Source: a virus. Taken from it: a stretch of DNA of 64,000 nt. The stretch is taken from the IMG/VR virus record IMGVR_UViG_3300006925_000010, positions 15,571 to 79,570 of that record. One strand, 5' to 3'. Both the position numbers and the translations under genes were made by a program. Position 1 is the first letter of the stretch. Each line of letters opens with the position of its first letter. Positions 36,626-62,013 of the stretch are shown here, in pieces. The notes under the pieces were generated by a model that searched no databases, was not told the origin of the DNA, and saw only the letters and a program-made list of their open reading frames with translations.

Positions 36626-36656
36626 GTAAATAGTAGTATAAATTAGGAGTTAACAA

Positions 36657-37720: not shown

Positions 37721-38140
37721 ATGAATATATTAAATCACATTACTAATAACTTGAAAACAGTTTTAGTGGATAGATGGAAAGACTTCAGCGGAAGAAGTAA
37801 TAGACCAGAGTATTGGTTCTTTAGTTTGTATGCATCAATTATAATGTTTGTGCTTATGGGTATAGACAACTTAATTGGTTTTACATTCTGGAATTGGATT
37901 GACCCTTTTGGATCACCTAACACAGGTATCCTTGGAGCAATCTTTTTATTAGGAACACTTCCAGCAAGTTTGGCTGTAACAGCCAGAAGGCTACATGACA
38001 GAGGTCATAGTGCATGGTGGATTATCGGATTATTTGTTCCAGGATTAAACTTTATTGTTTTTTACTGGTTAGTAAGAGCGGCTAAAGATACACCTGAAGC
38101 AAAGAAATATGTAAACCCTTACGGTAAATTACCTAAGTAA
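37721..38140 (+). CDS. DUF805 family (YhaH/YhaI-like) inner-membrane protein
   Basis: DFSGRSNRPEYWFF and LAVTARRLHDRGHSAWW signatures with three hydrophobic segments. Confidence 0.9.
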   Translation: MNILNHITNNLKTVLVDRWKDFSGRSNRPEYWFFSLYASIIMFVLMGIDNLIGFTFWNWIDPFGSPNTGILGAIFLLGTLPASLAVTARRLHDRGHSAWWIIGLFVPGLNFIVFYWLVRAAKDTPEAKKYVNPYGKLPK

Positions 38141-38192: not shown

Positions 38193-38200
38193 TATAAATA
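38193..38200 (+). promoter_or_regulatory. T4-type late promoter TATAAATA at the head of the enzyme cluster
   Basis: Exact consensus 25 nt upstream of the 38226 ATG; AGGA RBS present. Confidence 0.8.
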
Positions 38201-38225
38201 GTACTATATACATACAGGATCATAT

Positions 38226-38597
38226 ATGGCGGCTAAACTACAGACAGCATTAGAGTTTTCTAACTACAGACAGACACTAAACAACCAAAAAGAAGTATTA
38301 AAAGCAAAAACAGAAAGTTTGCTAAGTTATAGTATTAATGGTGGTACATTTACTATTGATCGAGAACTTATTACTTTTGTCAAAGTTTTAATTGACGATA
38401 AGCACACTGATGCTATACTATTAGATATTTACAATCATCCTATTGCAATAGACTTACAAAACTTTTACGGTGAAATAATGAGTAGATATTTTGAAGTAAC
38501 CAATGACTATTATGTAGAGTATGAAAACATAAGAAAAGCAAGGAAAGTATCTTCTGTATTAGACTTAAATAATCCAGGAAGTGATAGTGGCGAATAG
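38226..38597 (+). CDS. Hypothetical protein (123 aa), first gene of the glycosyltransferase module
   Basis: RBS, upstream late promoter, overlap with the next gene; function not recognised. Confidence 0.75.
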   Translation: MAAKLQTALEFSNYRQTLNNQKEVLKAKTESLLSYSINGGTFTIDRELITFVKVLIDDKHTDAILLDIYNHPIAIDLQNFYGEIMSRYFEVTNDYYVEYENIRKARKVSSVLDLNNPGSDSGE

Positions 38598-39546
38598 CAG
38601 TCGTGGGGTAATAATGTTTGCCCACAACAATACAGAGATAGACTACATAAAGTTAGCATACGTTAACAGCCTGCTAATACAAAAGCATATGGGCTTAGAT
38701 AGAACACAGATTACTGTAGTTACTGATCCTCATAGCCTCGAACACGGTAAAAAAACAATTGGTATTAGAAAAATGCAACAAGCATTTAAGAATACCGTTG
38801 TAGTAGAAAAAGACATAAAGTTTAAACAGAGTAATGTTAGAACATACAAAGACACCAGTCACACAGCAAAGCAATTACAGTTTTACAACGTTAATCGTTG
38901 TGATGCATACGATATATCACCGTACGACGAAACGTTGCTTATAGACGTTGATTATATTATACAAAGCGATTCTCTTAATCAAGTATGGGGTCATAACAAC
39001 GAACTTATGATGAATTGGGAGTTCCAGGATATACTTAATGATAGAAAGTTTCCTGCATTAGATAGACTAGGCCCTACTGGTATAACAATGTATTGGGCTA
39101 CAGTAGTTTACTTTAAAAAGTCCTCATACGCAGAAACGTTTTTTAACTTTGTTAAACATGTTAAAAATAACAAAGAATACTACGGTGACTTGTACAGATG
39201 GTATGGCACGTTATACAGAAACGATTATAGTTTTAGTATTGCGGCACACATGATAAGTGGCTATCAAGACAAAGGTGTACCCCAACTACCTCACAAATTA
39301 TATAAAACGTTTGATACAGACGATGTCGAGGAAGCCATCAGCGACAATGATTTATTACTGTATCTAGAGAAAGTTAGAAGTCCAGGAGACTTTATTCTTG
39401 CAAGATGGAAAGGAGTTGACTTACATATAATGAACAAGTGGGCTCTAAATAGAATAAGCGAAACAATGATAAAACACTTAATTACTGCAAAAAGACCTGC
39501 TAAGAAAATAGCAAAAGAAGTAGAGATAGAACATGTGGATGCATGA
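38581..39546 (+). CDS. Glycosyltransferase-like protein, GT-A fold (start may be GTG 38587)
   Basis: N-terminal RGVIMFAHNN..DYIKLA and SPYDETLLIDVDY (DxD) resemble GT8/GT71-type enzymes; paralogue of 40381. Confidence 0.65.
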   Translation: MIVANSSRGVIMFAHNNTEIDYIKLAYVNSLLIQKHMGLDRTQITVVTDPHSLEHGKKTIGIRKMQQAFKNTVVVEKDIKFKQSNVRTYKDTSHTAKQLQFYNVNRCDAYDISPYDETLLIDVDYIIQSDSLNQVWGHNNELMMNWEFQDILNDRKFPALDRLGPTGITMYWATVVYFKKSSYAETFFNFVKHVKNNKEYYGDLYRWYGTLYRNDYSFSIAAHMISGYQDKGVPQLPHKLYKTFDTDDVEEAISDNDLLLYLEKVRSPGDFILARWKGVDLHIMNKWALNRISETMIKHLITAKRPAKKIAKEVEIEHVDA

Positions 39547-39676
39547 TTGTGCTGTTGGCGGACCGACAGCAACAGAGTCTGACCAACCTTGCAATTGGTG
39601 TAATATCACGCAAGAAGACATTATGGATAAGGAAATAAACACAAACCACGATACACTGGAACCCGTAGATGAGTAA
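39533..39676 (+). CDS. Small Cys/His protein (47 aa), not in the ORF track
   Basis: MWMHDCAVGGPTATESDQPCNWCNITQED...; HxC...CxxC pattern; overlaps both neighbours and tiles the gap. Confidence 0.6.
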   Translation: MWMHDCAVGGPTATESDQPCNWCNITQEDIMDKEINTNHDTLEPVDE

Positions 39677-39848
39677 GTCAAAGGCACCAGAACTAGGAGA
39701 TATGATAGAACATATCTGTGCCCTTAACGGTAAGTTTGAGGGCAAGGTTGTACAACTATTAGCAATGCAATTTGTTTACGAAACCAAAGAAGGTAATCGT
39801 AGATTTTGTTTGTTTAAAGAACAATGGAAAAAGTTAGATGAAGACTAG
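39669..39848 (+). CDS. Small hypothetical protein (59 aa), not in the ORF track
   Basis: MSKSKAPELGDMIEHICALNGKFEGKVVQLLAMQFVYETKEGNRRFCLFKEQWKKLDED; overlaps both neighbours; SH3/KOW-like pattern. Confidence 0.65.
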   Translation: MSKSKAPELGDMIEHICALNGKFEGKVVQLLAMQFVYETKEGNRRFCLFKEQWKKLDED

Positions 39849-40290
39849 GTATTACATACTCGCAGGTATAGTTTACACATTGGTTGTAGGCTTTGTTGTG
39901 AATGCTGTAACCTACAGAGTGACATACGAAGAAGTTAAGGAAAAATGCTTAGTAGACGGCTGTATATCTGTATATGAATACACAGGCGAAGTAGGTGGTG
40001 AGGAGTGGGAAGAACTAATTCTCATTGCCGAAGAGGCTGAAGAAGAAGCAGAAATGTGGAAGGCAGATGCCGACGCAAAATGGGAAAGTGACGAGAATCC
40101 ATACTACAACACAGCATCTGATCAATCTGATGCCGCAATATATGTTAATATGTTTATGATGTTAGCAGACCCTATAAACTGGTTGTTCACATTTATAATT
40201 GCTACATTTATAGCAGGATTCTACTTAGCATTTTATAGTTGTAAACTTGCTATAGAAAGATATTTTAGGGGAGACCATGGGGAAGATTAG
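39838..40290 (+). CDS. Hypothetical membrane protein (150 aa)
   Basis: Hydrophobic N- and C-terminal helices around an acidic loop. Confidence 0.7.
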   Translation: MKTRYYILAGIVYTLVVGFVVNAVTYRVTYEEVKEKCLVDGCISVYEYTGEVGGEEWEELILIAEEAEEEAEMWKADADAKWESDENPYYNTASDQSDAAIYVNMFMMLADPINWLFTFIIATFIAGFYLAFYSCKLAIERYFRGDHGED

Positions 40291-40381
40291 ACAATGGATC
40301 GGTCGTTGGTTTGATTATCACTTAGAAAGAAGTATGCAACGACATGCAAATAAGCAATGGAAAAATAGGAAAAAGCAGTAA
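40277..40381 (+). CDS. Small basic peptide (34 aa), not in the ORF track
   Basis: GGGGAG RBS; MGKIRQWIGRWFDYHLERSMQRHANKQWKNRKKQ; its TAA overlaps the next ATG (TAATG). Confidence 0.6.
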   Translation: MGKIRQWIGRWFDYHLERSMQRHANKQWKNRKKQ

Positions 40382-41244
40382 TGAGCAGAGGTTATATAGT
40401 TATAGCACAGAACAATAGCACGACTGATTATCTAAAGCAGGCGTATGCATTAGCTCTGAATTTAAAAGCAACACAGACGACTGTAAGCAGTCTAACAGTA
40501 TGTGTTGACCCTGCTACTAGAGACATGATTAAACCTAAACATACTAAAGTTTTTGATAACATAGTAGACATTCCTTGGGCAGACGATGCCGAAAACGACG
40601 AATGGAAAATTAATAATAAGTGGAAATACTATTACATGACTCCGTATGATGAGACAGTAATACTTGATACTGATATGCTATTTCCTACAGATGTAAGTCA
40701 TTGGTGGGATATTATGTCACAACGTGATGTTTGGGCAACAACAAAAGTTAGAACATATAGGGGCGAAGTAGTAAACAGCGATTACTACAGAAAATATTTT
40801 GTTGCAAATGATTTACCTAATGTTTATACAGCATTCTTTTATTTTAAACAAAGCGATCTAGCAAGTGAACTGTTTGCAATGACTGAGATTATATTTCAAC
40901 ATTGGCAAAGATTCTTCCATAGATACATGCCCAAAGGTAAACCAGACTGGTTGAGCGGCGATGTTGCATTTGCACTTGCTATACAATTACTAGACATTGA
41001 ACAAGAATGTACAAGGGAAAACATAGATTCGGTTCCTACTTTTATACATATGAAAAGCCATATACAAGAAGTAAGAGGTGCCGCACTTAGTGAAACATGG
41101 ACTGAGAGTTTACCAACATACTATAACGATTGTAAGAACTTTAAGATAGGAAACTTTCAACAGCAATTACCGTTTCACTATGTTGAAAAAGAATGGTTAA
41201 CTGATAAAATGATAAAGCAAATGGAGGATTCGTATGCCGGCTAA
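40381..41244 (+). CDS. Glycosyltransferase-like protein, GT-A fold
   Basis: MSRGYIVIAQNN..DYLKQA and MTPYDETVILDTDMLF (DxD); paralogue of 38581. Confidence 0.7.
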   Translation: MSRGYIVIAQNNSTTDYLKQAYALALNLKATQTTVSSLTVCVDPATRDMIKPKHTKVFDNIVDIPWADDAENDEWKINNKWKYYYMTPYDETVILDTDMLFPTDVSHWWDIMSQRDVWATTKVRTYRGEVVNSDYYRKYFVANDLPNVYTAFFYFKQSDLASELFAMTEIIFQHWQRFFHRYMPKGKPDWLSGDVAFALAIQLLDIEQECTRENIDSVPTFIHMKSHIQEVRGAALSETWTESLPTYYNDCKNFKIGNFQQQLPFHYVEKEWLTDKMIKQMEDSYAG

Positions 41245-41947
41245 AAAAACAACAAAGAAGGCAGAGATAGAAAAAGTACAACAAGAGAATATTGTATCGG
41301 ACGCCGCACTAGAAAGAAAAAAGAGATTCCTTGCAGAAAAAGAGAAAGCAGGTGGAATTGATAAACTTGTTCAGACTCACAAAGAAAAGCCGTGGGTTAT
41401 ATATTTTACAAAGGCAGGAGAAATTGTTTGCTTTACACAGAACGAAGTAGATGTTAAAGACGATTGGCAAACATACGACTTCTCACAAGAACAATTAAAG
41501 ATACTTATTGACAATATGGATGACTTGTTTAAGTATAGAATTAATGTTGATCCTACTGTGGATAACTTGTATAGTATTCAGTTAAAAGAAATAAACACTA
41601 TCTACACAGAGTCTGAGAAAGACTTCCTCAACGAAATTGAGTACGGCAAAAGCACTTCGTTTGATGTAAAGGTTGCTGTTAACTCTGCTGAACTTGTTAT
41701 TACCTTAAGCAACAAAGCAAAGGAAGTATACAAAGATGTATATCCTATTAGTGCAACTGTAAAAGGACAACGGCTGTTAAAATTCTTCTTAACAGCAGAA
41801 CACGACCCACATGTAATGTTTCATTACGAAATCATAAGCCTAGCAGAACTTATTACAGAAAAGAAAGTTGTTAGACAATTACCCGGAGACTTGCGCCACT
41901 GTAGTGTGTATACTGTAAAACTGTTTGATAAATATCAGAGAGCATAA
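41234..41947 (+). CDS. Hypothetical protein (237 aa)
   Basis: GGAGG RBS, overlap with the upstream GT gene; no recognised motif. Confidence 0.75.
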   Translation: MPAKKTTKKAEIEKVQQENIVSDAALERKKRFLAEKEKAGGIDKLVQTHKEKPWVIYFTKAGEIVCFTQNEVDVKDDWQTYDFSQEQLKILIDNMDDLFKYRINVDPTVDNLYSIQLKEINTIYTESEKDFLNEIEYGKSTSFDVKVAVNSAELVITLSNKAKEVYKDVYPISATVKGQRLLKFFLTAEHDPHVMFHYEIISLAELITEKKVVRQLPGDLRHCSVYTVKLFDKYQRA

Positions 41948-41961
41948 CAGGACACATTTAT

Positions 41962-42972
41962 ATGGCAAAGCAAGATGTCACAGAACTAGATATATTCTAT
42001 ATTTCATACGACGAGCCAAACTGCGAAGAGCATTGGGCAGACTTATTAAACAAAGTACCTTGGGCAAAACGTGTCCACGGTGTTAAAGGCTTTGATGCCG
42101 CACATAAAGAATGTGCAAACCAATCTGAAACAGAACGTTTTATCACAGTAGATGGTGATAATATTGTTATGCCTGATTTCTTTGAACAAGCTCTTGACTT
42201 TCCAGAAACTGATCACGACGGTAATGATATTGCTGAAAGTATTTTTAGTTGGAATGGTAAAAATATTCTCAACGGATTAGTATATGGTAATGGTGGACTT
42301 AAATGTTGGCCTACAGAGTATACCAAAACAATTAACACACATGAGGCCGCAACTGACGGCGAGGGCATGGAGTTTTGTTGGAAGTTAAATTATATACAAC
42401 TTAACGACACGTTCTCAGAAGTACACCAAACAGCCAGTCCTTTTCAAGCCTTCAGAGCAGGGTTCAGAGAGGGTGTTAAAATGAGTTTGGACCAGGGCAC
42501 AAGGGTGAAGCCAAGTGAATTCAAAGACAAGATATGGTATGGAAATTATAATAGATTACAGACCTGGGCTAACATAGGCACTGATGTTACTAACGGCTTA
42601 TGGGCTATATACGGTGCAAGACTTGGTTGCCAAATGGCAGTACTAAGCGATTGGGACGTTAATTTAATATCAGACTACGACTGGTTTAAAAGTTTCTTCT
42701 ATGACGACGTGGCACCTAAGTTTGACGGCTTAAACGACATGAAGTGTAACTATACCAAGCAACAATGGCAACAGGAATTATTATATAAAGAGGTATGCAG
42801 ATTAGGGCACGAACTCAATGAAGAGATAAACGACATGATGTTGTTCAATCCTAACGAACAAATGTGTAGATTCTTTAAGAAAACTTATGTTAACCCTAAA
42901 CGCTGGGGAGTAATGATCAGAGAAAAACAAATACAGGACTTGTTAGAAAAAGGCCTCATCGGCTCATCTTAA
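41962..42972 (+). CDS. Glycosyltransferase-like protein (GT2-like fold)
   Basis: DIFYISYDEPN...RVHGVKGFDAAH..CA....ERFITVDGDN follows the GT-A nucleotide-binding pattern with DxD. Confidence 0.6.
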   Translation: MAKQDVTELDIFYISYDEPNCEEHWADLLNKVPWAKRVHGVKGFDAAHKECANQSETERFITVDGDNIVMPDFFEQALDFPETDHDGNDIAESIFSWNGKNILNGLVYGNGGLKCWPTEYTKTINTHEAATDGEGMEFCWKLNYIQLNDTFSEVHQTASPFQAFRAGFREGVKMSLDQGTRVKPSEFKDKIWYGNYNRLQTWANIGTDVTNGLWAIYGARLGCQMAVLSDWDVNLISDYDWFKSFFYDDVAPKFDGLNDMKCNYTKQQWQQELLYKEVCRLGHELNEEINDMMLFNPNEQMCRFFKKTYVNPKRWGVMIREKQIQDLLEKGLIGSS

Positions 42973-43755
42973 ATGAAACTATACGCCAATATAGGCATAG
43001 GGCACGAAAACGACATAGATGTTTTAAAGCAACGAGTTGTTAGTGCCGCACAATGCAATGCTGATGCAGTTATAATAGGCAAAAGCACACCTGTAAAAAC
43101 AGTACCAAGTAACAAAAAGTATGTGCCTATACAAAGTAAGTGGGGGACTATGGCATACTTAGAAGTTGCAAAACGCTCTGAAGTATCTAAAGAAAACGCA
43201 TTAACACTAACTAACTTCTGCAAAGAGATTGGTATACCATTAATATGGAGTGTGACTGACAATCAAGCAGGTGCATGGGTGAGAGAGAATTGCGACAGTA
43301 GTACAATCAAGGTCCACTACGATGCAATAGATCCTATAGAACTTATACAATATTGCAAAGAAAACTTTGAACATGCTATATACAGTCATGTACACATGGA
43401 CGATATTTTACAATATTACACAAATACTAATAAACGCAGAAACATCACAATATATTATACAACAGATCAGTTTCCGCCTAAAGTAGAAGACTTACAACTA
43501 GGTAATATAGACAAACTAACGAAAAAATGGCCTGATGTTAGAATTGCATACGAAAGCAGAGAAGCAGGCATATTCCCAGGAGTAGCAGTTGCATACAAGG
43601 GAGTCGACTTTATAGAAAAATATTTAGGCGACGATGACAGCGACAATCCATCAATACTAACACCAGAACAGTTTTATGATTTTTGGAATACCATGAATAT
43701 ACTGTTTGAAGCCGACCAAGTAAAAATAGAAGAGGATCTTCAACCTGATAAATAA
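42973..43755 (+). CDS. NeuB (N-acetylneuraminate synthase) family homologue, degenerate active site
   Basis: YANIGIGHEND...AAQCNADAV, FCKEIGI, GVDFIEKY and SILTPEQF align by eye with the NeuB TIM-barrel motifs. Confidence 0.7.
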   Translation: MKLYANIGIGHENDIDVLKQRVVSAAQCNADAVIIGKSTPVKTVPSNKKYVPIQSKWGTMAYLEVAKRSEVSKENALTLTNFCKEIGIPLIWSVTDNQAGAWVRENCDSSTIKVHYDAIDPIELIQYCKENFEHAIYSHVHMDDILQYYTNTNKRRNITIYYTTDQFPPKVEDLQLGNIDKLTKKWPDVRIAYESREAGIFPGVAVAYKGVDFIEKYLGDDDSDNPSILTPEQFYDFWNTMNILFEADQVKIEEDLQPDK

Positions 43756-43765
43756 GTGCGTAGTT
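43747..43765 (+). promoter_or_regulatory. Late-promoter-like GATAAATA with AGTGCGTAGTT extension
   Basis: Upstream of the sugar dehydrogenase; the same extended motif occurs at 33853-33870. Confidence 0.6.
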
Positions 43766-43795
43766 TAAAACTATGACAGACAACAGGAGAAGAAA

Positions 43796-45124: not shown

Positions 45125-45131
45125 GATAATC

Positions 45132-45156
45132 AGTGGGGGTTCGCCCCCACTATTTT
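45132..45156 (+). terminator. GC-rich hairpin with UUCG loop and short U tract (weak terminator or attenuator)
   Basis: AGTGGGGG-TTCG-CCCCCACT followed by ATTTT, 7 nt after the ugd stop. Confidence 0.7.
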
Positions 45157-45165
45157 AGGAATAGT

Positions 45166-54930: not shown

Positions 54931-56567
54931 ATAAATTTGATCAAGCAGGATTTATACTTGCACATAGTAAAGAGATTTGTTATGCAGGAAAAGATATTGC
55001 GAACCTTAAAAAACTAAATGCTCGTTTACATGCACAACTTGTAGGCAGAGGTGCAGTATTTACGCAACTGACAGATTATAATAAAACTAGAGACATGGCT
55101 TCTATGTACGGACCAGATGTTGTGCTATTGCTAGAGCAAGATGCACCAGAAGGATACAATACTAGCAGTTGGTCGACGTTGTTTATAGTACCAGAATACA
55201 GTAAGTCAAGAGATCATAAGCCGTGGAGAGATCAGAATAATAGAGATTGCGAAACATTCTTTTGGAATGAAGACGGCGACTCTGCTTGGTGGCTTTCTAT
55301 GCCATTGCAAGGAGCACCAGCAAAATATTTAAAGCCTTGGAGTGAAAATGCTGATAAACTGTTCCAACACCAGATATTAGGAATACACCCTGATCTTGCT
55401 ATACACTGGGATAGAATATTCCCAATGTACTTTGGTGCTGATTCTCAATATGCTCCATATAGATTACCGTTCTTAGAATTATTACATGCAATTAAAAAAG
55501 CAATAGAAAAAGGTAAAGACAAATTTATATTTTCAAATGCCGACGAAGCATTACAACCACATAGCATAGGAACAGCACATAGATTAATAAGAGCACTGAA
55601 CTTCATGCCTAAGAGTAGTTTCTTTATGTTAACAGCGGCACTTGATGGCACTGACAGTTATAATAAACTATGCGGAATCATGGGTATTGAACCTATGATG
55701 CAAATTATTAGTGGACATAGATTTGAAAATGTAGTTAAAGATAGTATGTATATGGACTACCCAAGTAGATCGCAAGACTTTACAGAACACCCAGTATGGA
55801 AGGACAGAGAGTATCATATAGGTAAACGAAACAAGAAACTATTGTGCTTTAACAGAATGCCTAGATGGCAACGTGCCAGGATGGTTGGATTCTTGTTTGA
55901 ACACGATCTTGTTAAAGATAGTTTTGTAAGTTTTGATTTATCTAACCATGCAGAAGGATTCTCAAATAAAGATGCTTGGTTACTTGAAAATAATAATCAG
56001 TTAGACAAAGAATTGAAGCAAGAACCTTATATGCACAATATCTATAAAAATTGGAGCAGACTCCCACTAGTGCTAAATAGAACAGTAGAAAGAGATAATC
56101 CTGTGGATATCAACGATGATGATTTACAGTATTTTGATAATAGTTATTTTAGTGTTGTAAATGAGACTAATTTCTATCATTGTTTAGGTAACGTAAGTAC
56201 TAAACCTATAAGTTGTGTACATACCGACGGTGTGTTTATAAGTGAGAAACTATATAAACCAATTGCACACAGGCATCCTTTCGTAGTAGCAGGTATTAAT
56301 AGAACACTAGAATACTTGCGTAAAGCAGGATATAAAACATTTGATGGAATTATAAATGAAGAATATGATCAAATCAGAGACGACGAATTAAGATTACAAG
56401 CATTAGAGGAAGAAGTATTACGTTTAGCAAATTTAACAGATGACGAATGGTTAGATCTACAAGTGCAACTAAAGCCTATAATAGATCACAACTATAAACA
56501 TTTGTTATCAATCAAGAAACTAAATACCACCGACTACGATTTAGTCGGGGAATATTTTAAAGGATAA
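54918..56567 (+). CDS. Putative glycosyltransferase (GT-B/GT10-like C-terminal motif)
   Basis: LLCFNRMPRWQR, YFSVVNET...FISEKLYKPIAHRHPF...GYKTF..IINEEYD; paralogue of 51384. Confidence 0.55.
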   Translation: MDNIDKFDQAGFILAHSKEICYAGKDIANLKKLNARLHAQLVGRGAVFTQLTDYNKTRDMASMYGPDVVLLLEQDAPEGYNTSSWSTLFIVPEYSKSRDHKPWRDQNNRDCETFFWNEDGDSAWWLSMPLQGAPAKYLKPWSENADKLFQHQILGIHPDLAIHWDRIFPMYFGADSQYAPYRLPFLELLHAIKKAIEKGKDKFIFSNADEALQPHSIGTAHRLIRALNFMPKSSFFMLTAALDGTDSYNKLCGIMGIEPMMQIISGHRFENVVKDSMYMDYPSRSQDFTEHPVWKDREYHIGKRNKKLLCFNRMPRWQRARMVGFLFEHDLVKDSFVSFDLSNHAEGFSNKDAWLLENNNQLDKELKQEPYMHNIYKNWSRLPLVLNRTVERDNPVDINDDDLQYFDNSYFSVVNETNFYHCLGNVSTKPISCVHTDGVFISEKLYKPIAHRHPFVVAGINRTLEYLRKAGYKTFDGIINEEYDQIRDDELRLQALEEEVLRLANLTDDEWLDLQVQLKPIIDHNYKHLLSIKKLNTTDYDLVGEYFKG

Positions 56568-56568
56568 C

Positions 56569-58857
56569 ATGGTAGACAAACATAAGAAACATTTAGACTT
56601 TAACCTCACAAACATAGCAGTGGATGAGGCAGACGAAGGTAGGTATATAAGACCAGAGCTCAGTGTAGAAGACGCAAGACATCAGCAGATGATGAATACT
56701 ATTGCGCCTTTTGCCAAGAAAGTACAACAAAAGAATACTAAGTCTGTTTATGTAGATTACAAAACTCGTAGTACAAAACTAATGCTAGTTTTATGTCCCG
56801 AATGGGCACCTGAGTTTCCTCCATTTAACTTAGCAAGACTAAGCGGAGTATGTAAAGCCGCAGGATACGAAACAAGTATACTAGACTTAAATGTTAAAGC
56901 ATATAACCTCAATCAAAACGATTGGCAACCTCTCAAGAAGATTCCTTTTAGGTTATGGGATCCTAGTGCTAGTTGGCACTGGCTTGGTGACACATACATG
57001 CATGACATTCACCCATTACTAGAACCATTACTGGAAGAAGGATTAGAACATATTATAAAAGAGAATCCTGATGTAGTAGGATTTAGTCAATACTATATTT
57101 CCGAAGAACCAACTAAGTGGATGTGTGAACAACTTAAAGAAAGAGCACCGCACATCAAAATTGCTGTAGGCGGAAGTAACGTACAGAAAGATTGGTTTGA
57201 CATTAGACCTTACTATGATTATATATGTACCGGAGAAGGCGAAGCGGCTATTCTAAGCATACTACAAGACATAGAAGACGGCATAGACCGAGGGCCTATG
57301 TATAAGATTACACAAGAAGAAATGGAACGTATCAATATTAATGATATGCCAATGCCTGACTATGAGGGATTAGACTTTAACGAATACAAAGTACCTAATG
57401 GAGTAACCTCAGAGTTCTCACGTGGTTGTACTGCTAAGTGTACGTTCTGTGAAGAGACACACTTTTGGAAGTACAGACAAAGACTTGCAGTAGATGTATT
57501 ACGTGAAGCAGAGTACTTGTACTATGAGAAAGGTGCAGACGTTATGTGGTTTATCGATAGTTTGATTAATGGTAACGTTAACGAACTCAGAGCATTTGCT
57601 ATTGCACTTAGAGAAAAGAATATTAAAATGAGATGGACTGGTTATGCTCGTTGCGATGGTAGAATGGACGATGACTACTTTAAAGACTTAGCAGAAGGTG
57701 GTTGCATTATGATGAACTATGGCTGTGAGTCTGGTTCACAAAAAGTATTAGACGACATGGCTAAAGGTGTTACTATCAAAGAGATGGAAGACAACTTTGC
57801 TTCAGGCAAGAAGCACGGAGTATATGCCGCCACTAACTGGATTGTAGGTTTCCCCACAGAACAACATCACGACTTTGCAAGAACAATGACTTTCCTTTGG
57901 CGTAACAGAAACATGAATATTAATAACGTCGGCGCTGGTGTAGGTATGGCAGTAGGACCTGAAACTATTGTAGGACAGAATCCACACAAGTATAATGTAA
58001 GTTATCACAAATATCAAAACCATTGGATAGCAAATGACTTTACTATTGCAGGCATTCACGTTATGCATAGAGTTAAACTGTTCCACACGTTCTTAGACTT
58101 TATGGTAGGTTGTACAGATGTACCGTTTGGTTACCCTGTACGTTTTAACTTACGCAAAGAACACTATATGATTAGACTTAATCAAACTGATGTACAGCAC
58201 GAAATCGAGTATGAGGACTTTGACTACAACATAATTAAGCCAAACATTTCTCCTTTTGCAGATAGTTTAGTAAATGAGATATGGCCATTCTTAAGAATGA
58301 TGTGGTTAACAAGAGGTGGCTACAGATGTACTGTAGAATTTAATCCGGATATAGATGCAAGAGAATTTGGTAATCAGTTTGGTCCAGCAGATCAGTTTAA
58401 TGGCTTATACAAGTTTGTTATTGATGATGACGGTAACTGGAAAGCAAACTTCAAGTACGATTACAAACAAGTAGACAATCCATATGATGATAGACCTCCT
58501 GTAAGTGAAGGCGGACGTAAAGGTCCGTTCTATGCACAGGACTACTCACGTATGCAATCTAACACAGCCAAAAGAGCAAGAAAACTTGCTAAGCCTGACT
58601 GGGATAGACTAGAAGGTAGAAGCCAATCAGACTTTGGTGATTTGCTAGACGAAGAAGAATTTTTAAACAAGACCATAGACTGGAGTTTTGATTACACATA
58701 CAAAGGCAAAGGACAATGGTTTAGAAACAAAGACACAGTAGAAGTACCAGACACAATTGGCGCAGGTGTTAACGAAGACAACAAGCATTTAGCACAATCA
58801 TCTAACTTCACAGCCATTGATGCCGATATGATTACTGTTAAGACAGTAGAGGAATAA
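56569..58857 (+). CDS. Cobalamin-binding radical SAM enzyme (class B methyltransferase-like)
   Basis: B12-binding domain (PPFNLARL...G....LDLN; PDVVGFS; VGG; GEGE), then SRGCTAKCTFC, GCESGSQKVL..M.KG, IVGFP.E. Confidence 0.92.
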   Translation: MVDKHKKHLDFNLTNIAVDEADEGRYIRPELSVEDARHQQMMNTIAPFAKKVQQKNTKSVYVDYKTRSTKLMLVLCPEWAPEFPPFNLARLSGVCKAAGYETSILDLNVKAYNLNQNDWQPLKKIPFRLWDPSASWHWLGDTYMHDIHPLLEPLLEEGLEHIIKENPDVVGFSQYYISEEPTKWMCEQLKERAPHIKIAVGGSNVQKDWFDIRPYYDYICTGEGEAAILSILQDIEDGIDRGPMYKITQEEMERININDMPMPDYEGLDFNEYKVPNGVTSEFSRGCTAKCTFCEETHFWKYRQRLAVDVLREAEYLYYEKGADVMWFIDSLINGNVNELRAFAIALREKNIKMRWTGYARCDGRMDDDYFKDLAEGGCIMMNYGCESGSQKVLDDMAKGVTIKEMEDNFASGKKHGVYAATNWIVGFPTEQHHDFARTMTFLWRNRNMNINNVGAGVGMAVGPETIVGQNPHKYNVSYHKYQNHWIANDFTIAGIHVMHRVKLFHTFLDFMVGCTDVPFGYPVRFNLRKEHYMIRLNQTDVQHEIEYEDFDYNIIKPNISPFADSLVNEIWPFLRMMWLTRGGYRCTVEFNPDIDAREFGNQFGPADQFNGLYKFVIDDDGNWKANFKYDYKQVDNPYDDRPPVSEGGRKGPFYAQDYSRMQSNTAKRARKLAKPDWDRLEGRSQSDFGDLLDEEEFLNKTIDWSFDYTYKGKGQWFRNKDTVEVPDTIGAGVNEDNKHLAQSSNFTAIDADMITVKTVEE

Positions 58858-59609
58858 TGTATTTGTACAATCTCGGAGATAGTTGGGCATGGGGTTTCGA
58901 CGATTCGTTTACTATTCCTTTTAAACGTACTTACGCAGATATAGTTGCAGAGAACTTTGGCTTAAAGAAAGTTACATGTTGCAAACCTGGTTGGGCACTA
59001 GGTAATGCTATAGAAGAATTTTTGCAGAAAGTTTATCATAAGTTAACAGCAGATGATTGTGTATTAGTAACAGTACCACCAGACACTAGAATATGTGTTG
59101 CTCATTACAAACAGTCTAGTCCATACGATACTCATGATCATAGAAGAACTCAAACAGTTTACTCAGACCAACCGTTATGGGAGGCTTTAGTAGAAACTAC
59201 AGGTTTCAATACATATCAGTTTGAACTAACACAAAACAAAGACTTAATGCTGATAGCATCTTTGTGCAAACTAAAAAATGTAAAGTATGCATTCCAACAT
59301 AACTATAGCAGTTTTACATACGATCCTTCCTGGAGAGACACTTTACTAACAGACGGCTTTGTGGATACTAATAACAGTATGACAGAGTGGTTAGGCATTG
59401 ACGCAACAGCATACCAAGGCAACAGCATTGACGACCAATTAAAAAGACGTATAGATGGTCCAAAAATAAATAAGAATAAACAGAAATATTTAACAGACAG
59501 TTTTCACCCTAACTTACTAGGACACGAAGTAATAGGGCAGAGACTTACACAGGAACTAACAGACAAATGGAATATGCAACCAACGAATGGGATAAACTAC
59601 AGCAAGTAA
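58857..59609 (+). CDS. SGNH/GDSL-like acyl-esterase or acyltransferase
   Basis: LGDSWAWG and DSFHPNLLGH. Confidence 0.75.
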   Translation: MYLYNLGDSWAWGFDDSFTIPFKRTYADIVAENFGLKKVTCCKPGWALGNAIEEFLQKVYHKLTADDCVLVTVPPDTRICVAHYKQSSPYDTHDHRRTQTVYSDQPLWEALVETTGFNTYQFELTQNKDLMLIASLCKLKNVKYAFQHNYSSFTYDPSWRDTLLTDGFVDTNNSMTEWLGIDATAYQGNSIDDQLKRRIDGPKINKNKQKYLTDSFHPNLLGHEVIGQRLTQELTDKWNMQPTNGINYSK

Positions 59610-60538
59610 TAGTAGGTACGGCAAGAGGTGCCAGGATACCTGACTTTGATCTTTCTATGAGGCTGGTTAACTATGCTGACGTTCCAGACGAAACAACTAT
59701 ACACACAGGACCTTATCCAGAGCAAGTAACACAAGAAGCAGACGAAGACTTAGAAACATTTGTAAAGTTTTTAGAAGGAGAAAGTGTTGATGTGTTACGT
59801 CCTATTAACAATGCTAGTATTCCTGTACACTACTACGACTATTGTCCAAGAGACATAGTGTTCTTACATGGTGAACATGCTATAGCAACACCGCAACCTA
59901 TTCGTGCAAGAAACCAAAACTATCAATCCATAGCACATCACTTGCCTGGCATTGTAGAGGCGCCTAGGTATTACGAAGACGATTTATATAACAAAGCATG
60001 TTTAGGTGATCCAGATACTCTAGCACTAACAGAAGTAGCACCTAGTTTTGATGCGGCTAACTGTATTCGTGCTAATGATGATATACTGTACTTGGTAAGT
60101 AACTCAGGCAACGTAGCAGGAGCAAACTGGTTAAGAGAACACACAGGCTTAAACGTACACTTACTAGAGGGTGTGTATTCATACATGCACATAGACTCAA
60201 CAGTTGCTTTCTTACGAGAAGGCTTGATGTTGCTTAACCCTACAAGAATCAAAGACGTTAGTGTGCTACCTGAACCATTTAGAAGTTGGGATTACATAAT
60301 GTGTCCAGAACCTACAGACATAGGTTACTTTGGAGACTATAACAATGCTAGTGTGTGGATTAACATGAACATGTTAAGTATATCACCTACACTGGTAGCA
60401 CTAGAAGAGAATCAACATTCTCTGAGAATAGAATTAGAAAAGCACGGCATCGACTGTGCTATGTTACCTACTAGGCATCAAAGAACACTTGGCGGCGGAT
60501 TCCATTGTGTAACAGCAGACACAAGGAGACAAGCATGA
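59567..60538 (+). CDS. Amidinotransferase (glycine / inosamine-phosphate amidinotransferase family)
   Basis: NEWDKLQQVIVG, YCPRD, FDAAN, HIDST, GGGFHCVT with the Asp-His-Cys catalytic residues intact. Confidence 0.92.
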   Translation: MEYATNEWDKLQQVIVGTARGARIPDFDLSMRLVNYADVPDETTIHTGPYPEQVTQEADEDLETFVKFLEGESVDVLRPINNASIPVHYYDYCPRDIVFLHGEHAIATPQPIRARNQNYQSIAHHLPGIVEAPRYYEDDLYNKACLGDPDTLALTEVAPSFDAANCIRANDDILYLVSNSGNVAGANWLREHTGLNVHLLEGVYSYMHIDSTVAFLREGLMLLNPTRIKDVSVLPEPFRSWDYIMCPEPTDIGYFGDYNNASVWINMNMLSISPTLVALEENQHSLRIELEKHGIDCAMLPTRHQRTLGGGFHCVTADTRRQA

Positions 60539-61101
60539 GCATAGCACACCAAGGACACGTTACACCTGTGTGGACAGACGAGCATAAGCATTTTGATTAC
60601 ACCAAGCAACCAATCAAACCCTCAGAGATAGAAGTTTGGAAAAGCAAAGGTTACTATCATGCAAGTTTCTCAGGCGGAATGTACGACAGCAGAAATCCTA
60701 TGCCGGACTGGGTAGACTATGTAGCAACCAAGATAGGATTATCAAACTGTGGCTATGTGTTTTACAAAATGGAAACACTAGACATAATGCCCACACATAT
60801 AGATCACTTTGAAACATACGAACGTGTATTTGGTGTTGCCAGAGATAACACATACAGAGCATTGGTGTTCTTAGAAGATTGGAAACCAGGACACTATTTA
60901 GAATTTAACGGCGAAGCAGTAACAAACTGGTCAGCAGGAGACTATGCACTATGGGAGGCTGACATACCTCATGCCGCATCAAACATAGGCGTTGCTGATC
61001 GTTACACATTACAAATCACAGGAGAACTTGACCCAGCAGTCAAGTATAACATAACACACAACACAAACATCCGTTTATACCCAGACTGTGATGTTGACTA
61101 G
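60535..61101 (+). CDS. 2OG-Fe(II) oxygenase-like protein
   Basis: AGGAG RBS and ATGA overlap; PTHID (HxD) ... PHAASNIG..RYTLQITG (distal His and Arg). Confidence 0.75.
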   Translation: MSIAHQGHVTPVWTDEHKHFDYTKQPIKPSEIEVWKSKGYYHASFSGGMYDSRNPMPDWVDYVATKIGLSNCGYVFYKMETLDIMPTHIDHFETYERVFGVARDNTYRALVFLEDWKPGHYLEFNGEAVTNWSAGDYALWEADIPHAASNIGVADRYTLQITGELDPAVKYNITHNTNIRLYPDCDVD

Positions 61102-61109
61102 GAGATAAC

Positions 61110-61304
61110 ATGGCTAAGAAGAAACAAGCAGATATCAGTGACGTTGGTGGTATCAGAGAATCATGGAAGCCCAGCGAAGGCGTTAATTGGGATATCATAC
61201 AACGCATGAGATTTATGAATGCTGATGCCGAGATAGCACCCGACGATTCATTTACTGCCACAGCTCGAGAGCACAACGAACAAGACACATTTACTCGTGA
61301 GTAA
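61110..61304 (+). CDS. Hypothetical protein (64 aa)
   Basis: AGGAG RBS; fills the gap between neighbours. Confidence 0.65.
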   Translation: MAKKKQADISDVGGIRESWKPSEGVNWDIIQRMRFMNADAEIAPDDSFTATAREHNEQDTFTRE

Positions 61305-62013
61305 GTGTTTGATAGCAGGCTGTTCTCATAGTGCAGGCTTTGAGATAGACGGCACAGAAGATAGTGCATACAACCGTAGCAAGTGTTTTGGTGCTGTGCT
61401 GTCAGGTATGTTGCAGTTAACACCACACAACATTTCACTAGGAGCACAATCAAATAGTGCTATAGCACGTTCAGTGATAGACTACTGTGAATCAAACTCA
61501 GACGTTGAGTTCGTAGTAGTGGGTTGGACAGAGATGACTCGTATTGATTTACCCTCAGGACACGACGTTGATCACGATGGTTCTAACCCTGCTGTGGATA
61601 CTTTTACCCAAATAAACAAACGTTGGCTACAGATAAACTCCGGATGGGAAGGCTTTACACCATATGAAAAGTCAATTATGCCTTACTGGCACGAGTTTAT
61701 GTACAACAAAACAGACATTCTAGACCTCATCACTGTGAAAGAAATGCTGTTAACACAACAATATCTACAAAGCCGAGGCATAGACTATGTGTTTGCCAAC
61801 ACCATGTTGCCTTATAATCCTTCTAGATATACTGATTGGTACTGGAAACTCATAGATGACAGCAAGTGTATGTGGGACGCAGAAGGCTTCTTTTTCAAGT
61901 ACAAAGAACTAGGATATGAAAATCCCAAAGCACAATACTGGCATCATGACGAATTACCTCATCGCCTGTATGCAGAAGAGCTGTATAATCATATAGCAGA
62001 AAGAAACACATAG
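61297..62013 (+). CDS. SGNH/GDSL-like protein
   Basis: AGCSHSAG, NISLGAQSN, VVVGWT...R, C-terminal YWHH...H. Confidence 0.65.
   Translation: MSKCLIAGCSHSAGFEIDGTEDSAYNRSKCFGAVLSGMLQLTPHNISLGAQSNSAIARSVIDYCESNSDVEFVVVGWTEMTRIDLPSGHDVDHDGSNPAVDTFTQINKRWLQINSGWEGFTPYEKSIMPYWHEFMYNKTDILDLITVKEMLLTQQYLQSRGIDYVFANTMLPYNPSRYTDWYWKLIDDSKCMWDAEGFFFKYKELGYENPKAQYWHHDELPHRLYAEELYNHIAERNT

What the first reader, a model, noticed from the sequence alone, without database searches (positions are those of the whole stretch)
38193..62013. 24-kb phage-encoded, late-expressed glycan biosynthesis and radical-tailoring cluster next to the tail genes
Seen: about six GT-like genes, a UDP-sugar dehydrogenase, a NeuB homologue, five tandem radical SAM genes, a B12 radical SAM, three SGNH proteins, an amidinotransferase and a 2OG-Fe(II) oxygenase. 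All are on one strand, mostly joined by TAATG/ATGA overlaps, behind TATAAATA-type promoters (38193, 43747) of the kind also found before tail genes. Known: this set of chemistries resembles secondary-metabolite sugar tailoring (twitch rSAM BtrN, B12-rSAM GenK/GenD1, amidinotransferase StrB1). Inference: the phage builds a heavily modified glycan late in infection, most plausibly on its Ser/Thr-rich baseplate and fibre proteins. DNA hypermodification or host-surface remodelling are alternatives. I know of no characterised phage pathway of this complexity.
Basis: partly seen in the sequence, partly recalled or inferred. Interest (0 to 1): 0.9.

Follow-up and report, generated by a model that had tools for sequence, protein, structure and literature searches.

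The report
Phage fibre-linked radical-SAM sugar-tailoring operon
An uncultured marine giant phage carries, directly behind its tail-fibre genes, about 22 soluble enzymes that most likely build and chemically edit an unusual sugar chain; its product and target are unknown, but a cultured Ralstonia phage carries the minimal version and could be used to test it.

Summary
The gene content is mostly real. Window 38226-62013 holds 22 same-strand genes, gap-free from 45133 to 61101:
- four N-terminal-twitch radical SAM genes (NF033640), a fifth radical SAM and a B12-radical SAM;
- a UDP-sugar dehydrogenase and a short NeuB-family protein;
- a StrB1-type amidinotransferase (PDB 1bwd, E 5e-75, catalytic triad kept);
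- three GT-B paralogues (fold shown for one);
- three weaker GT-A-like proteins.

The SGNH and 2OG-oxygenase calls remain leads.

A five-gene core (g01-g02-g04-g05-g06) recurs in at least 600 IMG/VR stretches. Fibre genes lie upstream in 60 of 64 testable loci, and radical SAM genes lie downstream in 47 of 65. Ralstonia phage RsoM2USA, an isolate, has the minimal core.

True bacterial homologues of the radical SAM set sit in surface-polysaccharide loci. No flippase, polymerase or priming transferase was found.

My reading is a cytoplasmic glycan-building and radical-editing pathway, probably acting on virion fibres. The target is untested.

One caveat is new. Late-type boxes head the cluster in this phage, but 57% of relatives have a near-consensus sigma70-type promoter there, which fibre genes almost never have (1 of 159). 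"Late expression" is therefore not a family trait.

The scan has already found this class on at least 22 other genomes.

The parts
28100..37622 (+). Context: distal fibre-type genes. These are u_226 (28100-28780), the 780-aa fibre with an S74 chaperone domain (28792-31134), a 910-aa protein, an 899-aa fibre (33926-36625) and the 321-aa S/T-rich protein u_321 (36657-37622).
   Evidence: PHROG tail-fibre hits and PF13884. S+T content is 16-27%. Homologues lie upstream of the core in 60 of 64 relatives.
37721..38140 (+). DUF805 membrane-protein moron inserted between u_321 and g01. It has its own TATAAATA box (37676) and flanking hairpin terminators (37645-37663 and 38160-38179).
   Evidence: PF05656 77 bits; sequence read. 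One contig in run X20 joins 37624 to 38157 without this gene. In relatives g01 follows the upstream + strand gene, usually the u_321-like one, at a median of about 60 nt.
38193..38200 (+). T4-type late-promoter-like box TATAAATA, 33 nt before g01.
38226..38597 (+). g01: conserved 123-aa protein of unknown function; first gene of the invariant core.
   Evidence: Alignment A7. Present in relatives and in RsoM2USA ORF354 at 38% identity.
38581..39546 (+). g02: GT-A-like protein with a DxD motif (consensus LLLDTDY); paralogue of g04.
   Evidence: Alignment A3; BLAST against g04 E 1e-7. No Pfam or PDB sequence hit.
39838..40290 (+). g03: small acidic protein with two TM-like segments. It is the only membrane protein in the cluster and was recognised in only one of the relatives' loci examined.
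40381..41244 (+). g04: GT8-like (glycogenin-like) GT-A candidate; a core gene.
   Evidence: Profile against PDB gives glycogenin at E 0.003 over the N-terminal 100 residues. phrog_1903.
41234..41947 (+). g05: protein of unknown function. It is homologous to the ORF that occupies the same slot between g04 and g06 in relatives.
   Evidence: Alignment.
41927..41934 (+). GATAAATA box 35 nt before g06.
41962..42972 (+). g06: the best-conserved core gene. It has an SYDEP...IDGDN motif and is probably a GT2-like GT-A glycosyltransferase.
   Evidence: Alignment A1; AF2 pLDDT 74. VIA Z 5-6.4 to both GT-A enzymes and nucleotidyltransferases. BFVD list mostly GT25 or GT2-like. At least 600 viral stretches. 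50% identity to RsoM2USA ORF350.
42973..43755 (+). g07: short NeuB-family TIM-barrel protein, found in only a few relatives, mostly close ones.
   Evidence: PF03102 58.9 bits; TIGR03569 50.8 bits against a cut-off of 399. Relatives.
43747..43754 (+). GATAAATA box 49 nt before g08.
   Evidence: NATAAATA lies upstream of UGDH in 4 of 9 relatives.
43796..45124 (+). g08: nucleotide-sugar (UDP-glucose-type) 6-dehydrogenase.
   Evidence: About 68% nucleotide identity to the UGDH of Synechococcus phage Bellamy. Contigs from RNA libraries of three studies cover it.
45133..50414 (+). g09-g12: four tandem N-terminal-twitch radical SAM enzymes (Tw1-Tw4).
   Evidence: NF033640 296-369 bits. Four N-terminal Cys plus CxxxCxxC are kept in all four.
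50396..51397 (+). g13: fifth radical SAM enzyme with a C-terminal Cys cluster. It pairs with Tw4 in phages and in bacteria.
51384..54121 (+). g14 and g15: GT-B-fold glycosyltransferase paralogues from a family with no Pfam model and no functional name (hits named at all are 'hypothetical protein').
   Evidence: AF2 pLDDT 92.6. Foldseek E 1e-5 to glycogen synthase and SdgB. VIA Z 10.7 to T4 BGT and 10.1 to FucT. 373 homologues, none with a Pfam domain. Paralogy.
54121..54930 (+). g16: SGNH/DUF6071-like candidate (GCS...DFSH motifs).
   Evidence: GDSL_2 17.3 bits, below the cut-off. A homologue hits DUF6071 and, weakly, GDSL_2. Motifs.
54918..56567 (+). g17: third GT-B paralogue, with an N-terminal extension.
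   Evidence: BLAST against g14 E 5e-23.
56569..58857 (+). g18: B12-binding radical SAM enzyme (class B; putative C-methyltransferase).
   Evidence: PF02310 48 bits and PF04055 60 bits. All named subfamilies fall below their cut-offs. 62% identity to a gene on a Halobacteriovorax MAG contig.
58857..59609 (+). g19: SGNH-like protein (GDS at residues 7-9, DSFH at 214).
   Evidence: Motifs only. No Pfam or PDB hit.
59567..60538 (+). g20: StrB1/AGAT-family amidinotransferase.
   Evidence: PDB 1bwd E 4.9e-75 with the triad conserved. 6249 environmental homologues.
60535..61101 (+). g21: cupin-like protein; possible Asp/Asn-hydroxylase-type 2OG oxygenase (lead only).
   Evidence: Atlas neighbour cluster with PF05118 in 21% of members. 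A homologue scores 16.9 bits, below the cut-off.
61297..62013 (+). g22: DUF6071-related protein (GCSHS motif); last gene of the cluster.
   Evidence: Homologues at 24-25% identity hit PF19547 at 42-47 bits.

Best explanation
This is a cytoplasmic glycan-assembly and radical-editing pathway of a T4-like jumbo phage. It has two tiers.

Tier 1 is an invariant five-gene core: g01, the GT8-like pair g02 and g04, g05, and the GT2-like g06. It is anchored directly behind the distal fibre genes. I infer that it starts a sugar chain on an acceptor, most probably a virion fibre protein such as the neighbouring S/T-rich u_321 or u_899.

Tier 2 is a lineage-variable tailoring cassette.
- g08 makes a UDP-uronic acid.
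- g07 may make an ulosonic acid.
- The GT-B paralogues g14, g15 and g17 add further sugars.
- The four N-twitch radical SAM enzymes plus g13 abstract hydrogen from sugar carbons. The outcome could be epimerisation, oxidation, deoxygenation or C-C chemistry; the actual reaction is unknown.
- g18 adds a methyl group to an unactivated carbon.
- g20 moves an amidino group from arginine onto an amine, giving a guanidino group.
- g16, g19 and g22 handle esters, and g21 may hydroxylate.

Shown: gene families, folds, operon structure, conservation and linkage. Inferred: every substrate, the order of steps, the timing and the target. My odds are about 0.8 that it is a glycan-building and editing pathway, and about 0.4 that the acceptor is a virion protein.
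For: - Families and folds.
- All six radical SAM motifs are intact.
- All enzymes lack TM segments; only g03 is membrane-like. None of the 22 genes gave a Wzx, Wzy, priming-transferase or ABC-exporter family match.
- The core plus fibre linkage holds in all 18 Tw-seeded loci that carry the core and have upstream DNA. It holds in 60 of 64 g06-seeded loci.
- The same linkage is seen in phage contigs mis-binned into MAGs and in the isolate RsoM2USA. There the core lies just downstream of ORF356 and ORF361, both confirmed in virions by mass spectrometry (PMC8504454).
- The tailoring part is optional: radical SAM genes lie downstream in 47 of 65 loci.
- Genuine bacterial loci keep Tw4-g13-Tw-x-Tw1-B12 next to UGDH, GT2 and AsnB-like genes. 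Other Tw loci hold carbamoyltransferase, DegT, GT1, GT2 and ABC-ATPase genes.
- In this phage, [GT]ATAAATA boxes precede g01, g06, g08 and the fibre gene u_899. Sigma70-like sites are not above chance inside the cluster.
Against: - No acceptor has been identified, and no glycan has been observed on any related virion.
- Before g01, 57% of relatives have a near-consensus sigma70-type promoter, a type found upstream of only 1 of 159 fibre-gene copies. Much of the family may therefore express the cluster early or from the start of infection.
- The top structural neighbour of g14 is the DNA-modifying T4 beta-glucosyltransferase, although it is tied with many other GT-B enzymes.
- The GT-A assignments of g02, g04 and g06 are weak.
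- I found no paper describing a tested member of NF033640, and it is only a subfamily-level model. The chemistry is therefore guesswork.
Confidence: 0.42

Rival explanations
1. Host-surface remodelling. The enzymes make or edit nucleotide sugars and glycans that enter the host's own capsule, O-antigen or glycoprotein machinery during infection. The purpose could be blocking superinfection or altering the cell envelope.
For: - Bacterial homologues of the radical SAM set lie in surface-polysaccharide-type loci.
- UGDH is shared with a cyanophage and a pelagiphage.
- Sigma70-type promoters in 57% of relatives would allow early expression.
Against: - None of the 22 genes matched a flippase, polymerase, priming phosphoglycosyl-transferase or exporter family, and all enzymes are soluble.
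- The strict linkage to fibre genes in about 94% of testable loci is left unexplained.
- The GT core has never been seen in a genuine bacterial locus.
Confidence: 0.15
2. DNA hypermodification. The glycosyltransferases put sugars on modified bases of phage DNA and the other enzymes tailor them, protecting the genome from host nucleases.
For: - g14's best VIA match is T4 beta-glucosyltransferase (Z 10.7). T4 alpha-glucosyltransferase scores Z 9.0.
- Phage DNA glycans are known to be diverse (Pyle et al. 2024, cited in PMC12619734).
- Sigma70-type promoters in many relatives fit an early function.
Against: - Those structural matches are tied with dozens of other GT-B enzymes.
- No hydroxymethylase, kinase or base-modifying gene was found in the cluster.
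- Two complete relatives (363 and 365 kb) each have a single ordinary-scoring thymidylate-synthase-family gene, far from the cluster.
- In this phage the boxes are late-type.
- The bacterial context of the radical SAM set is polysaccharide biosynthesis.
Confidence: 0.13
3. A free secondary metabolite. The cluster would make an aminoglycoside-, aminocyclitol- or nucleoside-antibiotic-like compound that is released at lysis or acts inside the cell.
For: - g20 is closer to StrB1 (E 5e-75) than to AGAT (about 1e-40).
- Twitch radical SAM, B12-radical SAM and glycosyltransferases occur together in aminoglycoside pathways (my own knowledge).
Against: - No cyclitol synthase, aminotransferase, exporter or self-resistance gene was found.
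- g20 and g18 are accessory, whereas the invariant part is the GT-A core tied to fibre genes.
Confidence: 0.07
4. The radical SAM enzymes mature a protein or peptide (RiPP-like cross-links, epimerisation or methylation of fibre proteins), and the sugar genes are a separate function.
For: - SPASM/twitch radical SAM enzymes often act on peptides; weak NCBIfam hits to sactipeptide and ranthipeptide maturases were seen.
- S74 fibre-like proteins lie in 6 of 75 bacterial Tw loci.
Against: - g01 shows no precursor-like leader and variable-core pattern.
- All RiPP-family scores are far below their cut-offs.
- The recurrent bacterial neighbours are sugar enzymes.
- Enrichment of the S74 co-occurrence was not tested.
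Confidence: 0.05

Closest known systems
Virion glycosylation by mycobacteriophage-encoded glycosyltransferases (Freeman et al. 2023; seen only as a citation in PMC12619734)
   Same: Phage-encoded soluble glycosyltransferases lie next to structural genes, and the proposed acceptor is a virion protein.
   Different: Those systems have one or two GTs and no radical SAM, B12, amidino or uronic-acid chemistry. Their hosts are actinobacteria, and glycosylation was shown experimentally. Here nothing has been tested.
Virus-encoded glycan machineries of giant viruses (chlorovirus PBCV-1 A64R; Mimivirus fibril clusters)
   Same: A virus encodes a multi-gene, host-independent, cytoplasmic pathway for nucleotide sugars plus GTs that decorates its particle. 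PBCV-1 A64R and Mimivirus R699 appear among g06's weak fold matches.
   Different: Those are eukaryotic viruses. To my knowledge no radical SAM tailoring has been described there. The fold similarity is weak (E about 1e-2).
NCBIfam NF033640, N_Twi_rSAM (twitch domain-containing radical SAM protein)
   Same: g09-g12 score 296-369 bits against a cut-off of 170.
   Different: My literature searches found no paper describing a tested member. Membership therefore names no reaction.
Aminoglycoside tailoring enzymes StrB1, BtrN and GenK/GenD1
   Same: g20 is a true StrB1/AGAT-family member. Twitch radical SAM and B12-radical SAM enzymes act on sugars in those pathways.
   Different: The auxiliary-cluster domain is at the N-terminus here, not the C-terminus. 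g18 misses all named subfamily cut-offs. No cyclitol-forming enzymes were found.
T4 DNA glucosyltransferases (alpha- and beta-GT)
   Same: GT-B fold, with a VIA Z of 10.7 for g14.
   Different: Identity is 8-9% and the match is tied with many other GT-B enzymes. The genomic setting is different.
Ralstonia phage RsoM2USA ORF348-355 (MG752970.1), all annotated as hypothetical
   Same: It carries the same fibre-linked core: g01 38%, g02 33%, g04 39%, g06 50% and Tw1 34% identity.
   Different: It is the minimal version, with one N-twitch radical SAM and a second g06-like gene. It has no UGDH, B12 enzyme or amidinotransferase, and its host is a soil bacterium.

Membership tests
NF033640 N_Twi_rSAM | Whole-protein score above the curated cut-off of 170 bits | tested here: met
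   g09 296.3, g10 354.2, g11 362.4 and g12 369.1 bits. g13 scores only 39.6 bits and is not a member.
NF033640 N_Twi_rSAM | CxxxCxxC SAM-cluster motif plus N-terminal auxiliary-cluster cysteines | tested here: met
   The motif lies at residues 131-165 in each protein, and four N-terminal Cys are conserved in all four.
Amidinotransferase (AGAT/StrB1) family | Full-length homology to solved members | tested here: met
   1bwd E 4.9e-75 covering profile positions 6-327 of 329. HsvA, AGAT and SxtG score 1e-36 to 1e-42.
Amidinotransferase (AGAT/StrB1) family | Catalytic Cys-His-Asp triad | tested here: met
   g20 D96, H208 and C314 align with StrB1 D108, H227 and C332. That these StrB1 residues are catalytic is from my own knowledge.
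Class B (B12-binding) radical SAM | B12-binding domain followed by a radical SAM domain, both above the Pfam cut-offs | tested here: met
   PF02310 48.2 bits (cut-off 32.1) and PF04055 60.2 bits (cut-off 29.5).
Named B12-rSAM subfamilies (PhpK, RiPP C-MT, BchE, HpnR, KedN5) | Score above the subfamily cut-off | tested here: not met
   The best is 92.3 bits against a cut-off of 600.
UDP-glucose/GDP-mannose dehydrogenase family | NAD-binding and central domains above the Pfam cut-offs | tested here: met
   59.3 and 65.8 bits. TIGR03026 scores 147 bits against a cut-off of 189.8, so the subfamily cut-off is missed.
NeuB / PseI nonulosonic acid synthases | Equivalog score and a C-terminal SAF domain | tested here: not met
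   The Pfam NeuB domain is met (58.9 bits against 22.1). TIGR03569 scores 50.8 against 399 and TIGR03586 scores 29 against 340. The protein is 260 aa and no SAF domain was matched.
GT-B glycosyltransferase fold | Two Rossmann-like domains matching solved GT-B enzymes over the whole length | tested here: met
   g14 model pLDDT 92.6. Foldseek probability 1.0 and E 1e-5. 33 chains at VIA Z of 8 or more, and the top of the list is all GT-B enzymes.
GT8 (glycogenin-like) GT-A | Sequence or profile match to GT8 plus a DxD motif | tested here: inconclusive
   g04 profile against glycogenin gives E 0.003 over the N-terminal 100 residues only. g02 has a DTD motif but no PDB or Pfam hit.
GT2-like GT-A | GT-A fold with a DxD motif | tested here: inconclusive
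   g06 has an IDGDN motif. VIA Z of 5-6.4 is shared with nucleotidyltransferases. The BFVD list is mostly GT25 or GT2-like at E of 1e-3 or weaker.
SGNH/GDSL hydrolases | Pfam score above the cut-off, plus the GDS and DxxH blocks | tested here: inconclusive
   g16 scores 17.3 bits against 32.9. g19 has GDS and DSFH but no hit. Homologues of g22 belong to DUF6071.
2OG-Fe(II) oxygenase (Asp/Asn beta-hydroxylase type) | Family score above the cut-off | tested here: inconclusive
   g21 gave no hit in the Pfam scans. A homologue scores 16.9 bits against 22.6. An Atlas neighbour cluster carries PF05118 in 21% of members.
T4-type late transcription unit | TATAAATA-type box shortly upstream of gene starts, shared with structural genes and absent from early genes | tested here: inconclusive
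   Met in this contig (7 of 12 boxes within 60 nt of + gene starts, p 2e-8). However, 39 of 68 relatives have sigma70-type promoters before g01. No expression time course is available.
Wzx/Wzy- or ABC-dependent surface polysaccharide locus | Priming transferase, flippase, polymerase or exporter | tested here: not met
   No such family was hit, and no multi-pass membrane protein occurs among the 22 genes.

The most novel reading that the evidence does not exclude
A very large clade of aquatic and soil jumbo phages decorates its tail fibres with a phage-made glycan. The sugars of this glycan are rewritten by a never-characterised family of N-terminal-twitch radical SAM enzymes, with C-methyl and guanidino groups added in this lineage. 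That would be a new class of glycan-editing radical chemistry and the first elaborate virion glycosylation system in phages of Gram-negative bacteria.
Probability: 0.33. Interest if true: 0.9.

Novelty: new variant of a known kind. Interest (0 to 1): 0.74.

Why it matters
- If the product sits on the fibres, phage-made glycans could shape host recognition, particle stability or evasion of host and grazer recognition in abundant marine phages.
- The system is widespread. At least 600 IMG/VR stretches encode the core gene g06, and this phage or a near-identical one was found in metagenomes from 14 or more studies.
- The N-twitch radical SAM family (NF033640) has, as far as I could find, no tested member. 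A defined biological context plus a cultured phage (RsoM2USA) makes its chemistry directly testable.
- A StrB1-type amidinotransferase and a B12-radical SAM in a phage operon point to guanidino and C-methyl sugars, which I do not know from any viral glycan.
- The promoter split between lineages gives a natural experiment on when such a pathway must be switched on.

Tried and rejected
- PDB profile or sequence searches gave nothing usable for g02 (no hit), g06 (a spurious ammonium-transporter hit), the g14 family (a spurious sphingomyelinase hit), g21 and g19.
- Pfam and PHROG were silent on g01-g06, g14, g15, g17, g19, g21 and g22.
- Rfam found nothing in 36000-64000.
- Literature searches on jumbo phages with radical SAM and glycosyltransferase genes, and on twitch radical SAM enzymes with polysaccharides, found nothing relevant. 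The 'moraphage' paper (PMC12619734) describes another lineage and does not mention radical SAM enzymes.
- The 'Haliscomenobacter' locus L077 looked like a bacterial version of the whole system. It turned out to lie on phage contigs with giant virion and fibre genes, mis-binned into the MAG. The same holds for the 'Rickettsiales MED657' contigs L083 and L084.
- g01 as a RiPP precursor was rejected: it is a conserved globular-looking protein with no variable core.
- Only contigs were available for the RNA runs, so no transcription start or timing could be read. Parts without cover say nothing.
- The thymidylate-synthase-family search in four relatives gave one ordinary copy in each of the two complete genomes. 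This is no support for a hydroxymethyl-pyrimidine pathway, but it is not decisive.
- S74 fibre-like genes lie near bacterial Tw genes in 6 of 75 loci. I did not test this for enrichment and give it no weight.

Full report
WHAT THE DNA IS

The window is bases 15571-79570 of a 79.6-kb IMG/VR contig that CheckV rates 16% complete. A close relative (81% g06 identity) is a 250-kb contig rated 66% complete, and more distant relatives are complete at 363-365 kb. The upstream genes are T4-type structural genes:
- a gp6-like baseplate wedge, 39% identical to those of PA5oct, SCTP-2 and Atu_ph07;
- a 7162-aa virion ORF;
- a fibre with an S74 chaperone domain, and further fibre-like proteins with 16-27% Ser+Thr.

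The phage, or near-identical DNA, is present in marine metagenomes and viromes from 14 or more studies.

CHECKING THE OBSERVATION

From 38226 to 62013 there are 22 ORFs on the + strand. The junctions include five TAATG overlaps, one ATGA overlap and several short overlaps. Between 45133 and 61101 no gap exceeds 1 nt.

Firmly identified genes:
- g08, a nucleotide-sugar dehydrogenase.
- g07, a short NeuB-family protein. It passes the Pfam cut-off, falls far below the NeuB and PseI equivalog cut-offs, and has no matched SAF domain.
- g09-g12, four NF033640 N-terminal-twitch radical SAM enzymes scoring 296-369 bits against a cut-off of 170.
- g13, a fifth radical SAM, and g18, a B12-binding radical SAM. 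All six have intact CxxxCxxC motifs.
- g20, an amidinotransferase. A four-sequence profile hits StrB1 (1bwd) at E 4.9e-75 over the full length. D96, H208 and C314 align with StrB1 D108, H227 and C332.

g14 belongs to a family with 373 environmental homologues, none with a Pfam domain or a functional name. Its AF2 model (pLDDT 92.6) has a GT-B glycosyltransferase fold. g15 and g17 are its paralogues.

Weaker calls:
- g04 matches GT8/glycogenin at E 0.003, and g02 is its paralogue.
- g06 has a GT-A- or nucleotidyltransferase-like N-terminal domain with an IDGDN motif. VIA Z is 5-6.4, and the viral fold list is mostly GT25 or GT2-like proteins.
- The three 'SGNH' proteins rest on motifs, a sub-threshold GDSL hit and DUF6071 membership of g22 homologues.
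- The '2OG oxygenase' g21 rests on two sub-threshold Asp_Arg_Hydrox leads.

PROMOTERS IN THIS PHAGE

Exact TATAAATA occurs only three times in the window, at 37676, 38167 and 38193. That is fewer than the roughly nine expected by chance, and position 43747 reads GATAAATA.

Relaxed to [GT]ATAAATA, the contig has 12 sites on the + strand and one on the - strand. Seven of the 12 lie within 60 nt upstream of a + gene start (binomial p 2e-8). They precede fibre gene u_899 (33880), the DUF805 gene (37676), g01 (38167 and 38193), g06 (41927), g08 (43747) and one gene upstream of the window.

Three more sites look promoter-like by position. They lie 63 and 71 nt before gene starts, or 14 nt before a likely internal ATG start of u_226 (28102).

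Sigma70-like sites are not above chance inside the cluster (67 found against 75 expected). Near-consensus sigma70 promoters (11 of 12 positions) precede the small - strand genes beyond 62.4 kb.

By analogy with T4, where TATAAATA marks gp55-dependent late promoters (established knowledge), the cluster in this phage looks late. This is an inference.

CONSERVATION AND ANATOMY

Seeding with Tw3 gave 30 viral loci. Seeding with g06 gave at least 600 stretches, of which 80 were examined. The anatomy has two tiers.

Tier 1 is the core, g01-g02-g04-[g05 slot]-g06.
- It is invariant: g02 or g04 is present in 64 of 64 loci that have upstream DNA.
- Recognisable fibre homologues (u_226, u_899, u_321) lie upstream in 60 of 64 loci. 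The same holds in all 18 Tw-seeded loci that carry the core and have upstream DNA.
- g01 normally follows the upstream + strand gene, usually the u_321-like one, at about 60 nt. In this window a DUF805 moron with its own box and terminators sits between them. One variant contig in run X20 lacks it.
- g05 is homologous to the ORF in the same slot in relatives.

Tier 2 is the downstream cassette.
- It is variable. N-twitch radical SAM genes are present in 47 of 65 loci, with Tw1, Tw4 and g13 recurrent.
- UGDH, GT-B paralogues, the B12 enzyme, g16, g20 and g22 come and go.
- In 18 loci no N-twitch gene lies downstream; in most of these the core and a second g06-like gene are followed by genes on the opposite strand.

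An isolated phage, Ralstonia phage RsoM2USA (343.8 kb), has the minimal form. A fibre-like ORF355 is followed by g01 (38%), g02 (33%), g04 (39%), the g05 slot, g06 (50%), Tw1 (34%) and a second g06-like gene. All are annotated as hypothetical. The block lies just downstream of ORF356 and ORF361, which were confirmed in virions by mass spectrometry (PMC8504454).

BACTERIAL CONTEXT

N-twitch homologues at 30-37% identity are common in MAGs of Bdellovibrionota and Bacteroidota, often as two to eight clustered paralogues.

Recurrent neighbours are carbamoyltransferase, GT2, GT1, DegT aminotransferase, ABC ATPase and another SPASM radical SAM.

One Halobacteriovorax-type locus reads UGDH, GT2, an unknown gene, an AsnB-like amidotransferase, Tw4, g13, a short N-twitch gene, another unknown gene, Tw1 and a B12-rSAM. 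That B12 enzyme is 62% identical to g18. This is a surface-glycan context and argues for sugar substrates.

The GT core, in contrast, was never found in a genuine bacterial locus. The apparent exceptions, binned as Haliscomenobacter and Rickettsiales MED657, carry giant virion and fibre genes and are phage contigs.

MECHANISM

- All enzymes lack TM segments. No flippase, polymerase, priming transferase or exporter family was matched. Assembly is therefore cytoplasmic, on a soluble acceptor.
- I infer that the fibre-anchored GT-A core starts a chain and that the cassette supplies and edits the sugars.
- Proposed contributions are a uronic acid (g08), possibly an ulosonic acid (g07), extra sugars (g14, g15, g17), radical hydrogen abstraction (g09-g13), C-methylation (g18), amidination to a guanidino group (g20), ester handling (g16, g19, g22) and hydroxylation (g21).
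- From memory only, BlsE is a radical SAM enzyme that acts on a glucuronic-acid derivative. This shows such chemistry is possible, but it is a lead and not a test.

A NEW CAVEAT ABOUT TIMING

In relatives, the region upstream of g01 carries a near-consensus TTGACA-16/18-TATAAT-type promoter in 39 of 68 distinct loci (57%), against 1.7% of random windows. NATAAATA is present in 15 of 68, and 11 loci have both.

The fibre genes carry a sigma70-like promoter in only 1 of 159 cases, but NATAAATA in 17-52%. Other lineages have TCTAAATAC or GTAAATA boxes.

The cluster is therefore its own transcription unit, with lineage-specific promoter types. In most relatives it probably starts from an early, host-type promoter.

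This does not exclude virion glycosylation, because precursors could be made ahead of assembly. It does remove 'late expression' as general support, and it raises the DNA and host-surface rivals. This phage and its close relatives (L121-L126) have only late-type boxes.

EXPRESSION DATA

RNA-library contigs from three studies cover mainly g08 at 98-100% identity. These are contigs, not reads, so they show neither timing nor transcript ends, and DNA carry-over cannot be excluded.

VERDICT

The glycan and radical-tailoring reading is well supported.
- I found no description of this system in the searchable literature.
- Within this scan the same class has been reported on at least 22 other genomes, with follow-ups reaching the same general reading.
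- Six points are added here: the confirmed StrB1-type amidinotransferase; the quantified two-tier architecture; the cultured-phage model RsoM2USA; the exposure of mis-binned 'bacterial' copies; the bacterial UGDH/AsnB context of the radical SAM set; and the promoter dichotomy.

Noticed in passing
window 37640-38190: The DUF805 membrane-protein gene (37721-38140) is a self-contained insert with a hairpin terminator and a TATAAATA box on each side. One contig in run X20 joins 37624 to 38157 with 17 other letters, so a strain without the insert exists.
   Followed up: partly
window 39669-39848: A 59-aa + strand ORF lies in the 291-nt 'gap' between g02 and g03, and its end overlaps the g03 start. 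It may be a real small gene. An RNA-library contig covers 39542-39750.
   Followed up: no
L077, L117-L119 (G001 contigs C1 and C3); L083 and L084; L032: Contigs binned into a Haliscomenobacter MAG and a 'Rickettsiales MED657' MAG carry giant virion proteins, fibre genes and the full cluster, so they are jumbo-phage contigs mis-binned into MAGs. A 1.7-kb contig of a Flavobacteriaceae MAG (L032) holds only N-twitch rSAM sequence at 64% identity and may be one too. The binning might hint at hosts but proves nothing.
   Followed up: partly
L062:11369-13486: A Halobacteriovorax-type MAG contig with ordinary bacterial neighbours carries a B12-radical SAM 62% identical to phage g18. The other shared radical SAM genes are only 33-42% identical, which suggests a fairly recent transfer of this one gene.
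   Followed up: no
window 62400-64000, - strand: The small - strand genes have near-consensus sigma70 promoters (TTGACA-16-TATACT at 63885 and TTGACA-16-TACAAT at 63481). A two-way hairpin terminator lies at 62874-62895. This is probably an early-gene block converging on the cluster.
   Followed up: no
window 28792-31134 and 33926-36625: The 780-aa and 899-aa fibre proteins share their first 250 or so residues (34.5% identity) but have different C-terminal parts. Only the 780-aa protein carries the S74 chaperone domain. This is a modular fibre pair.
   Followed up: no
window 43804-45131: In three RNA-library runs from different studies, the contigs that match this stretch pile up on the UGDH gene, some with 0-3 differences. 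The neighbouring genes are hardly covered.
   Followed up: partly
L143, L145, L150, L153, L172, L186, L190, L195 and L197 (downstream of the core): Many relatives without radical SAM genes share a conserved block of about 12 small - strand genes straight after a duplicated g06-like gene. Its function is unknown.
   Followed up: no
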